From the IMG/VR virus record IMGVR_UViG_2526164594_000022: a DNA stretch of 23,911 nt, one strand, 5' to 3'. Under the pieces are notes generated by a model that saw only the letters and a list, made by a program, of their open reading frames with translations, was not told the DNA's origin and searched no databases. Shown in pieces: positions 7,807 through 7,873 of the stretch. Both the position numbers and the translations under genes were made by a program. Each line of letters starts with the position of its first letter. Position 1 is the first letter of the stretch. Origin of the DNA: a virus (lineage: Duplodnaviria > Heunggongvirae > Uroviricota > Caudoviricetes).

Positions 7807-7873
7807 CGGGTCGGTCTCGAAAACCGGAGTAGGGGCAACTCTACCGGGGGTTCAAATCCCCCTCTCTCCGCCA
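7807..7873 (+). other. 3' fragment of a tRNA-Ser gene (serU-type, variable arm to CCA end): att-site remnant
   Basis: GGTCTCGAAAACCGGAGTAGGGGCAACTCTACCGGGGGTTCAAATCCCCCTCTCTCCGCCA matches the 3' ~60 nt of tRNA-Ser(CGA) as recalled. No complementary 5' acceptor strand (GGAGAGA) upstream, so it is not an intact tRNA. Confidence 0.75.

What the first reader, a model, noticed from the sequence alone, without database searches (positions are those of the whole stretch)
7807..7873. tRNA-Ser 3' fragment marks the prophage boundary: e14-type module at a tRNA site rather than icd
Seen in sequence: about 60 nt identical to the 3' portion of a tRNA-Ser (through CCGCCA) with no 5' half, immediately after the pin and GIY-YIG genes. 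Established knowledge: tRNA 3'-end duplications are the hallmark of attR sites, and e14 itself integrates in icd. Inference: this e14-like element used a serU-type tRNA att site, or the fragment is an old att scar from stacked elements.
Basis: partly seen in the sequence, partly recalled or inferred. Interest (0 to 1): 0.4.

Follow-up and report, generated by a model that had tools for sequence, protein, structure and literature searches.

The report
Fossil serU attachment scar inside prophage
The half tRNA-Ser is real, but it is not the edge of this prophage: it is an old integration scar, still joined to 278 bases of host DNA from the distant serU locus, now carried as inert cargo inside an E. 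coli O157 prophage that sits at a different tRNA gene (thrW).

Summary
Window 7812-7873 is an exact copy of the last 62 nt of E. coli serU (tRNA-Ser CGA, positions 29-90). It has no 5' half and lies just after pin and the GIY-YIG gene.

The main interpretation does not hold. The window is E. coli O157:H7 prophage Sp1/CP-933H followed by the P4-like Sp2, and both are integrated at thrW. Sp1 is bounded by intact thrW with a decayed SfIV-type integrase on the left, and by a 46-nt thrW repeat at window 9954-9999 on the right. The serU piece therefore lies about 2.1 kb inside Sp1.

The piece is a genuine serU right-end junction that has been moved.
- The match to the native serU locus continues for 278 bp of serU-yodB intergenic DNA (7874-8151). 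It then breaks into an IS630 remnant, the AraC-like regulator gene patE and an IS3 remnant.
- Strain MB15 has a complete e14/SfV-like prophage at serU with the same pin, GIY-YIG, arm, serU' and flank, running on into yodB.
- The block serU'-flank-patE is carried by sequenced lambdoid phage genomes (ev099, mEp332, PhiR70_1). Its right-hand junction is in 537 of 5,426 complete E. coli genomes.

Best reading: host DNA captured next to serU by illegitimate recombination, then spread by phage mosaicism. It is an ordinary kind of event with a tidy example. Interest is low to moderate.

The parts
6211..6801 (+). pin DNA invertase gene. It is part of the block that is colinear with the right end of a prophage sitting at serU.
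   Evidence: Resolvase + HTH_7 domains. Window 6166-8151 matches MB15 L011 43514-45503 at 96.1%.
6859..7683 (-). LEM-3-like GIY-YIG nuclease gene. This is the longest ORF; the probable ATG is at 7632. It occupies the position that mcrA holds in e14.
   Evidence: Pfam PF22945, E = 3.8e-14. RefSeq annotation.
7633..7811 (+). Phage-derived arm (P arm) of a serU right-end junction. The T at 7811 is the phage-type base; native serU has C there.
   Evidence: The same arm is contiguous with serU', native flank and yodB in MB15 and RMDEC332. The arms differ between phage lineages exactly up to this point.
7812..7873 (+). serU' : exact 62-nt copy of serU positions 29-90, from the anticodon stem through CCA. 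This is the core of the fossil right-end junction and is the reported finding.
   Evidence: No tRNA is called here.
7874..8151 (+). 278 bp of host chromosome from the serU-yodB intergenic region (the B' flank), carried along with the scar.
   Evidence: 268-274 of 278 positions identical to native serU flanks in four strains. Alignment A1. In native loci the match to this sequence ends at 8151.
8152..8206 (+). Terminal 55 nt of an IS630-family element, the right-end remnant. The junction 8151|8152 is where host DNA ends.
   Evidence: 92.9% match to the 3' end of an IS630-family IS on plasmid pJNE23-001_1. That element's inverted-repeat ends were read from the sequence.
8456..9199 (+). AraC-family regulator gene. 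It is Sakai gene ECs_0287. It is most likely PatE (z0321, O-island 8), a known acid-resistance activator, but that equation rests on my recollection and on position, not on a direct sequence match to z0321.
   Evidence: HTH_AraC and HTH_18 domains. PatE = z0321 on OI-8 according to PMC10877973.
9204..9673 (-). Partial IS3-family element, named ISEc48 in the Sakai record. It is the end of the block shared with phages ev099, mEp332 and PhiR70_1 (window 7811-9677).
   Evidence: rve and rve_3 domains. Sakai repeat_region mapped with offset 3646. Phage matches.
9829..9953 (+). Phage arm of the true right-end junction of Sp1, of the SfIV type (thrW-specific).
   Evidence: Window 9829-10000 is 98.3% identical to SfIV 23073-23244, which lies between gtrA and int in SfIV.
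9954..9999 (+). thrW' : exact 46-nt copy of the thrW 3' end, from the anticodon loop to CCA. It is the true right boundary of Sp1 and the left boundary of the P4-like Sp2.
   Evidence: Sakai annotation of Sp1 and Sp2.
10111..11343 (+). P4-type tyrosine integrase of the satellite Sp2. It is not related to the serU scar.
   Evidence: Arm-DNA-bind_3, Phage_int_M and Phage_integrase domains. Annotation.
22870..22885 (+). thrW'' : the last 16-17 nt of thrW with a 1-nt deletion, followed by a native-like thrW downstream flank. This is the right boundary of Sp2.

Best explanation
The fragment is a fossil prophage right-end junction (attR: phage arm, then the serU core, then host flank) that formed at the serU locus. 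It now lies as inert cargo inside a mosaic, decayed prophage (Sp1/CP-933H) that is integrated at thrW.

Shown:
1. A phage with an e14-type right end (tail-fibre inversion cassette, pin, GIY-YIG) integrates in serU. The repeated core runs from the anticodon stem to the 3' end, 62 bp. This produces exactly the junction seen at 7633-7873.
2. In the window that junction is still joined to 278 bp of serU-yodB host DNA. At 8151|8152 the host DNA gives way to an IS630 remnant, patE and an IS3 remnant.
3. The block serU'-flank-IS630'-patE-IS3' lies between the tail-fibre genes and the att/int module in sequenced lambdoid phage genomes. It also occurs in prophages at thrW and at the lambda site (ybhB-bio).
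4. In O157 the true element boundaries are the thrW repeats.

Inferred:
- The host flank was picked up once, by illegitimate recombination next to a serU prophage. This could have been imprecise excision of the lambda-bio type, or a join between adjacent elements through the IS630 copy.
- The 340 bp of serU'+flank then served as portable homology. Phages carrying the block could swap left arms with whatever prophage occupied serU. Two unrelated phage-arm types, each also found in place at serU, share the identical 8151|8152 junction.
- Ordinary lambdoid mosaicism then placed the block in front of a thrW-specific att/int module.

Today the fragment most likely does nothing. It is not a tRNA, has no cognate integrase nearby, and is not a boundary.
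For: Identity and extent of serU' and its flank.

No tRNA is present.

Locus and true boundaries:
- proA-thrW-int' on the left.
- thrW repeats at window 9954-9999 and 22870-22885.
- The integrase remnant is 99% identical to SfIV Int, and no serU-type integrase is present.
- The attP-type arm is 98.3% identical to SfIV.
- The Sakai annotation gives Sp1 = 300042-310627 and Sp2 = 310628-323514. A published study places Sp1 and Sp2 at thrW and Sp14 at serU (PMC8190617).

Counterpart in place at serU: MB15 has mtfA, intact serU, int, then a complete e14/SfV-like myovirus prophage ending in pinE, GIY-YIG, arm, serU' and yodB. Its left and right junctions share the exact 62-nt core, and its right end is 96.1% identical to window 6166-8151.

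Carriage in phage genomes: ev099, mEp332 and PhiR70_1 hold window 7811-9677 at about 99% identity, between the tail-fibre assembly gene and int. The exact junction 30-mer occurs in 30 IMG/VR contigs.

Spread: the junction 8151|8152 is present in 537 of 5,426 complete E. coli genomes. It occurs in prophages at thrW (O157; strain 120899) and at ybhB-bio (XB2, E423).

Two arm classes on one downstream junction: the GIY-YIG-type arm and the ev099-type arm. The ev099-type arm is contiguous with native serU flank and yodB in 131 genomes.

Not a recent local copy: O157's own serU right-end junction (Sp14) has a different arm, and the match covering its core and flank is only 97.0% identical to the Sp1 copy.
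Against: - The capture mechanism is inferred, not shown. No intermediate was found, meaning a serU-resident prophage followed in place by flank-IS630-patE. Only sampled rows of the 5,426 genomes were inspected.
- The host flank joins the IS630 remnant at an internal position of the IS, not at an IS end. A simple recombination between two IS630 copies does not explain that junction without a second deletion.
- In strain E423 a terminase gene is joined to the same IS630' boundary, also after a TA. This hints at a site-directed process that I cannot explain.
- A single capture followed by arm exchange is the parsimonious reading of two arm classes sharing one junction. No recombination breakpoint inside 7812-8151 was demonstrated.
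- A residual function has not been excluded experimentally. Examples would be a secondary substrate for the Sp14 integrase, or transcription across the fragment.
Confidence: 0.85

Rival explanations
1. One reading: the fragment is the right-end junction of the resident e14-like prophage, which integrated here into a serU-type tRNA-Ser gene.
For: The local geometry fits a right end: tail fibres, pin, nuclease gene, then a tRNA 3' fragment in the tRNA's own orientation. e14-like phages do use serU.
Against: - The locus is proA-thrW, not mtfA-serU-yodB.
- The left end carries thrW and an SfIV-type integrase remnant.
- There is no second serU copy within 40.9 kb.
- The fragment is followed by only 278 bp of serU-locus DNA, then IS, patE and phage DNA, then a thrW right-end repeat.
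- Phage genomes carry the fragment internally.
Confidence: 0.02
2. The scar comes from elements stacked at this very site. An earlier element integrated in a tRNA-Ser gene located here, and later insertions buried its junction.
For: The region is a tandem array (Sp1 and Sp2) with nested att repeats.
Against: - All nested repeats here are thrW, not serU.
- serU's native locus is elsewhere in every genome examined: the native flank next to yodB is matched in 5,403 of 5,426 genomes.
- The same scar with the same downstream junction occurs in prophages at ybhB-bio and in free phage genomes. It therefore travels with the phage rather than belonging to this site.
Confidence: 0.03
3. The fragment is a live attachment site: an attP or secondary att site used by phages that carry it, or by the serU-type integrase of Sp14 in the same cell.
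For: - The 62-bp core is intact and identical to serU.
- O157 carries a serU-resident prophage, Sp14.
- Strain 2A has the same arm joined, right after an anticodon-stem-loop-like sequence, to unrelated DNA. This looks like an integrase-made hybrid site.
Against: - It has the structure arm-core-host flank, not arm-core-arm.
- Phages carrying it have lambda-type or SfIV-type integrases 1.8-2.5 kb away, and their prophages sit at ybhB-bio or thrW, not serU.
- Sp14's arm is unrelated to the arm here, so arm-type integrase binding sites probably do not match.
- No rearrangement using this site was seen among the O157 genomes listed.
Confidence: 0.06
4. The fragment is expressed and functional as RNA (a tRNA-half-like small RNA), or as a regulatory or terminator element for the neighbouring genes.
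For: It retains the variable arm and T arm, which fold as in the tRNA. It lies 580 nt upstream of patE.
Against: - No promoter-like site lies upstream on the + strand. The only good promoter match for patE is at 8393-8422, outside the serU-derived DNA.
- There is no RNA family hit of any weight.
- Folding energy is no better than shuffles, z = -0.10.
- An IS186-like element sits inside the T arm in one phage contig that otherwise keeps the block.
Confidence: 0.03

Closest known systems
Lambda bio / lambda gal specialised transducing phages (imprecise prophage excision)
   Same: Host DNA that adjoins the prophage right-end junction ends up inside a packaged phage genome, still contiguous with the arm-core-host junction. 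Here serU' plus 278 bp of flank lies in the region between the tail-fibre genes and att/int in ev099, mEp332 and PhiR70_1.
   Different: - The captured piece is tiny and non-coding.
- It is fixed in natural, viable phage lineages and in about 10% of complete E. coli genomes.
- The carriers have since acquired other att/int modules.
- The excision event itself is inferred, and the junction lies in an IS630 remnant.
Cryptic prophage e14 of E. coli K-12 (established knowledge: integrated in icd, right end stfE-pinE-mcrA-icd')
   Same: The right-end gene order matches: an invertible tail-fibre cassette, the Pin invertase, a nuclease gene, then a duplicated 3' piece of the target gene.
   Different: - The target of the ancestral module is serU, not icd.
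- The nuclease is a GIY-YIG protein, not the McrA HNH protein.
- In O157 the module is no longer at its own att site. It sits inside a thrW prophage.
Shigella serotype-converting phage SfIV (SfV/SfII group), which has a thrW integration module
   Same: The integrase remnant next to thrW is 99% identical to SfIV Int, and window 9829-10000 is 98.3% identical to the SfIV attP region. This module defines where Sp1 actually sits.
   Different: Sp1 has no gtr genes. Where SfIV has gtrABC next to attP, Sp1 has the serU'-flank-patE-IS block.
Prophage Sp14 (CP-933U-like) of O157:H7 Sakai, integrated at serU
   Same: It gives a true right-end junction at serU in the same genome, with serU' followed by the native flank and yodB.
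   Different: - The phage arm is different.
- The repeat starts one base later.
- The match covering core and flank is only 97.0% identical to the Sp1 copy, so the Sp1 fossil is not a recent duplicate of it.
P4-like satellite prophages at tRNA genes (Sp2/CP-933I)
   Same: It is the next element in the window and is bounded by short 3' tRNA repeats.
   Different: Its repeats are thrW, not serU. The serU' fragment lies 2.2 kb upstream of its integrase gene and belongs to Sp1.

Membership tests
Right-end junction (attR) of the element resident at this locus | The same core sequence is repeated at the other end of the element (attL) | tested here: not met
   No second serU copy in the 40.9-kb locus L001. 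The other end is intact thrW.
Right-end junction (attR) of the element resident at this locus | A cognate integrase is encoded in the element | tested here: not met
   The integrase remnant at the left end is 99% identical to SfIV (thrW-type) Int. The MB15 serU-type Int has no homologue in the window and only a 50-aa, 32%-identity match in the thrW-proximal left end.
Right-end junction (attR) of the element resident at this locus | The core is followed by the host chromosome of this locus | tested here: not met
   It is followed by 278 bp of the serU-yodB region, then IS630', patE, IS3', an SfIV-type arm and the thrW repeat.
Fossil serU right-end junction of a serU-integrating e14/SfV-like phage | The phage arm is the same as in a prophage sitting at native serU | tested here: met
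   A chimeric query is covered 100% at 97.5% identity in MB15 and RMDEC332, contiguous with yodB. Window 6166-8151 is 96.1% identical to the MB15 right end. Arms compared.
Fossil serU right-end junction of a serU-integrating e14/SfV-like phage | The core equals the 3' part of the target tRNA and is repeated at both ends of the prophage in place | tested here: met
   The 62-nt core equals serU positions 29-90. The exact core occurs at both MB15 junctions, L011 5984 and 45164.
Fossil serU right-end junction of a serU-integrating e14/SfV-like phage | The sequence after the core is the native host flank (B'), not the phage's integrase-proximal arm (P') | tested here: met
   268-274 of 278 positions identical to native flanks. 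The MB15 left junction continues CTATTCAACTAG, whereas the right junction and the window continue CTTTATCAATGA.
Specialised-transduction-type capture of host DNA | Host DNA contiguous with the att junction lies inside sequenced phage genomes | tested here: met
   The complete phage genome records ev099 (NC_049953), mEp332 (PV340541) and PhiR70_1 (PV340577) hold window 7811-9677 at about 99%.
Specialised-transduction-type capture of host DNA | The junction was made by imprecise excision of a prophage from that site | not testable with these tools
   Only the end product is visible. The junction lies in an IS630 remnant, and no intermediate in place at serU was found in the sampled genomes.
Functional tRNA gene (tRNA-Ser) | A complete cloverleaf detectable by tRNA finders or covariance models | tested here: not met
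   ARAGORN finds 0 genes. Rfam finds no tRNA at gathering threshold or at E<=10. The upstream sequence does not supply an acceptor or D arm.
e14-type prophage right-end module | An invertible tail-fibre cassette with a Pin-family serine invertase | tested here: met
   Pin has Resolvase + HTH_7 domains. Opposed tail-fibre and assembly genes are present. Window 4312-6190 is inverted relative to Sakai and TR01.
e14-type prophage right-end module | Integration in icd | tested here: not met
   The resident element is at thrW. The ancestral module's site was serU.

The most novel reading that the evidence does not exclude
The fossil serU junction plus its flank is not just debris. It may act as a portable 340-bp homology (and possibly integrase-recognition) cassette. 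Any phage that passes through a cell with a serU prophage could then swap right-end arms and pick up or hand on the patE acid-resistance regulator block. That would explain why one identical host/IS junction sits behind two unrelated phage arms, in phages of different tail types and with two integration specificities. In O157 it could also still recombine with the Sp14 junctions at serU.
Probability: 0.2. Interest if true: 0.45.

Novelty: new member of a known kind. Interest (0 to 1): 0.27.

Why it matters
- It corrects a tempting misreading. A tRNA 3' fragment next to tail-fibre genes is not always a prophage boundary, and automatic boundary callers that rely on tRNA half-repeats could split Sp1 wrongly.
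- It gives a clean, datable footprint of host-DNA capture at an att site, followed by spread through mosaic recombination into about 10% of complete E. coli genomes.
- It shows the genomic route by which the patE block, a known EHEC acid-resistance and LEE regulator gene, travels between lambdoid and e14/SfV-like phages.
- It does not reveal a new mechanism or a new kind of element.

Tried and rejected
1. Coordinates transferred from strain TR01 (L001) were off by 1-3 nt, because TR01 has indels relative to the window. All coordinates were recomputed on the window itself.
2. A possible third class of serU junction with a short T-loop core (IMG/VR locus L023) turned out to be an IS186-like DDE transposase element inserted in the T arm of the same fossil. 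It was rejected as an att class.
3. Origin of patE. No close relative was found in GTDB species-representative genomes, and the exact junction 30-mer is absent from them. Whether patE was itself host DNA next to serU could not be tested further.
4. An IS630-IS630 homologous join was considered as the sole cause of the 8151|8152 junction. It was set aside because the join is to an internal IS position, 55 nt from the right end.
5. O157's own Sp14 junction was considered as the donor. It was rejected because its arm differs and its core-plus-flank match is only 97.0% identical.
6. Literature. Searches on serU, patE, CP-933H, ev099 and mEp332 found no description of this fragment. The original PatE paper (PMC3416394) is not held.
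7. Sub-threshold Rfam hits in 7650-7950 (a plastid psbI-rps4 3'UTR family on the minus strand, a tmRNA T-arm piece, mascRNA) are echoes of tRNA-like sequence and carry no meaning here.

Full report
**1. What is there**

Window 7812-7873 reads CGGTCTCGAAAACCGGAGTAGGGGCAACTCTACCGGGGGTTCAAATCCCCCTCTCTCCGCCA. This is identical to positions 29-90 of the 90-nt serU gene (tRNA-Ser, anticodon CGA) from a native E. coli locus. It runs from the anticodon stem to the CCA end. Weak similarity with three mismatches extends back to 7803.

No 5' half is present:
- ARAGORN finds no tRNA in the whole window.
- Rfam finds none at gathering threshold or at E<=10 around the site.
- The stretch folds no better than shuffled sequence, z = -0.10.

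The fragment follows the pin invertase gene (6211-6801) and a LEM-3-like GIY-YIG gene (6859-7683, minus strand).

**2. Where the window comes from and where the elements really end**

The window is E. coli O157:H7. Positions 6166-23911 are 99.98% identical to strain Sakai. The layout, from the RefSeq annotations of TR01 and Sakai, is:
- proA, then intact thrW, then a frameshifted integrase;
- cI, cro, cII and fragments of the replication genes;
- the tail-fibre inversion cassette, pin and GIY-YIG;
- serU';
- an AraC-family gene and an IS3-family remnant;
- a P4-type integrase and the rest of a P4-like satellite, then yagP.

The 3' end of thrW is repeated twice. There is an exact 46-nt copy at window 9954-9999 and a 16-nt copy (with a 1-nt deletion) at 22870-22885.

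The integrase remnant next to intact thrW is 99% identical to the integrase of Shigella phage SfIV. Window 9829-10000 is 98.3% identical to the SfIV stretch between gtrA and int, which is its attP region.

So element 1 (Sp1/CP-933H) runs from thrW to 9999, and element 2 (the P4-like Sp2) runs from there to about 22885. This is how the Sakai record annotates them, and it matches a published study that places Sp1 and Sp2 at thrW and Sp14 at serU (PMC8190617). The serU fragment lies about 2.1 kb inside Sp1. There is no second serU copy in the surrounding 40.9 kb and no serU-type integrase.

**3. What the fragment is**

The match to the native serU locus does not stop at CCA. Window 7803-8151 aligns to serU plus the serU-yodB intergenic region at 96.3% over 349 nt. 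Of the 278 nt after CCA, 268-274 are identical to native flanks in four strains. In native loci the sequence runs on to yodB. In the window it breaks at 8151|8152.

A chimeric query was built from window 7500-8151 plus the native continuation. It is covered 100% at 97.5% identity in strains MB15 and RMDEC332. MB15 carries, in order:
- mtfA and intact serU;
- an integrase and a complete e14/SfV-like myovirus prophage;
- the YmfQ gene, the tail-fibre cassette, pinE and GIY-YIG;
- the same phage arm and serU', then yodB.

The exact 62-nt core occurs at both MB15 junctions. The left junction continues into phage DNA (CTATTCAACTAG) and the right junction into host DNA (CTTTATCAATGA), as in the window. 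Window 6166-8151 is 96.1% identical to the MB15 right end.

So 7633-8151 is an authentic serU right-end junction (phage arm, core, host flank) of an e14-type phage. It has been moved, host flank included, into a prophage at thrW.

**4. What it is joined to, and how it travels**

From 8152 the sequence is:
- the last 55 nt of an IS630-family element (8152-8206);
- an AraC-family regulator gene at 8456-9199. This is Sakai ECs_0287. It is most likely PatE (z0321, O-island 8), a known activator of acid resistance and repressor of LEE genes (PMC10877973). The equation with z0321 rests on my recollection and on position; I did not match the sequences;
- a partial IS3-family element (9204-9673).

Window 7811-9677 is present at about 99% identity in the complete genome records of lambdoid phages ev099, mEp332 and PhiR70_1, between the tail-fibre assembly gene and the att/int module.

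The junction 8151|8152 occurs in 537 of 5,426 complete E. coli genomes and in 30 IMG/VR contigs. Carriers include:
- a complete lambdoid prophage at thrW in strain 120899;
- decayed lambdoid prophages at the lambda site ybhB-bio in XB2 and E423.

Upstream of the core there are two unrelated phage arms: the GIY-YIG type (O157, 120899, MB15) and the ev099 type. The ev099 type is also found in place at native serU, contiguous with yodB, in 131 genomes.

O157's own serU junction (Sp14) has a third arm, and the match covering its core and flank is 97.0% identical to the Sp1 copy. The Sp1 copy is therefore not a recent local duplicate.

**5. Mechanism**

Shown:
- the junction was formed by integration at serU;
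- it is now inside phage genomes with 278 bp of host DNA attached;
- it is not a boundary here.

Inferred:
- One capture of the flank by illegitimate recombination next to a serU prophage. This would be imprecise excision of the lambda-bio type, or a join through the IS630 copy. I put roughly 0.6 on this step.
- Exchange of left arms by homologous recombination across the 340 bp shared with any serU-resident prophage. This would explain two arm types on one junction.
- Ordinary lambdoid mosaicism then placed the block ahead of SfIV-type or lambda-type att/int modules.

The fragment itself most likely has no present function. No promoter-like site lies upstream of it, and the best promoter match for patE (8393-8422) is outside the serU-derived DNA.

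**6. Unresolved points**

- The host flank joins the IS630 remnant at an internal IS position.
- In E423 a terminase gene is joined at the same boundary, and both partners end in TA. I cannot explain this.
- In strain 2A an e14-like prophage near ssrA has the same GIY-YIG arm. It is followed by an anticodon-stem-loop-like sequence (GGACCGGTCTCAAAAACCGCAG) and then unrelated DNA. This looks like an integrase-made hybrid with a secondary site and fits a crossover in the anticodon loop, but it was not pursued.
- No close relatives of PatE were found in GTDB species representatives, so the origin of that gene remains open.

**7. Verdict**

The kind of thing is known: a relic att site with captured host DNA inside a mosaic prophage. 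I found no description of this particular instance in the papers searched. Interest is low to moderate.

Noticed in passing
window 4312-6190: The tail-fibre segment between the two opposed tail-fibre/assembly gene pairs is inverted in the window relative to both Sakai and TR01, with about 24-nt overlaps at 4312-4335 and 6166-6190. The Pin-controlled inversion switch of this decayed prophage has therefore flipped between O157 strains.
   Followed up: partly
window 1-815 (ALIL pseudoknot at 361-477, minus strand): An IS1203/IS629 copy with its programmed-frameshift pseudoknot is inserted in Sp1 here and in TR01. It is absent at this position in Sakai, where window 816 corresponds to L047 4463.
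   Followed up: partly
window 8150-8206; L012 (E423) 5990-6060: The 55-nt IS630-family right-end remnant has the same inner boundary in two contexts with different left partners: serU flank ...GTCAATA|CCCGGAGG and lambda-type terminase ...GTTGGTTA|CCCGGAGG. Both partners end in TA, the IS630 target dinucleotide. The coincidence is unexplained.
   Followed up: partly
L009 (strain 2A) 8300-8340: An e14-like prophage near ssrA carries GIY-YIG and the same phage arm. The arm is followed by GGACCGGTCTCAAAAACCGCAG (serU anticodon stem-loop with 2 changes) and then unrelated DNA. This is possibly a hybrid made by the serU-type integrase at a secondary site.
   Followed up: partly
L023 (IMG/VR UViG_2537561945_000005) 5310-6665: An IS186-like element (DDE_Tnp_1 transposase, 372 aa) is inserted in the G/C-rich T-stem of the fossil serU' fragment. 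The rest of the serU'-flank-patE block is intact.
   Followed up: yes
window 17877-18110: The P4-like satellite Sp2 carries isrK-like (71.9 bits) and C4 antisense RNA (84 bits) genes upstream of its primase operon, as P4-type elements do.
   Followed up: no
window 11347-13436: The genes immediately downstream of the P4-type integrase are annotated in RefSeq as an ABC-three-component system plus an AAA ATPase (a pseudogene in Sakai). This is an anti-phage-defence-like cargo at the variable spot next to the satellite's integrase.
   Followed up: no
L001 10697-10720 versus window 22886-22905: The about 18 nt after intact thrW (TTTAAATCAATAAGTTAC) resembles the native flank after the last thrW repeat (TTTAAATCAAGTAGTTAC). 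The SfIV-type attP therefore seems to share identity with thrW slightly beyond the tRNA 3' end.
   Followed up: no
window 7819-7870, minus strand: There is a sub-threshold Rfam hit (40.9 bits, gathering score 68) to the plastid psbI-rps4 3'UTR family. It probably arises because that family resembles the antisense of a tRNA-Ser. It is an artefact of the tRNA fragment, not a feature.
   Followed up: no
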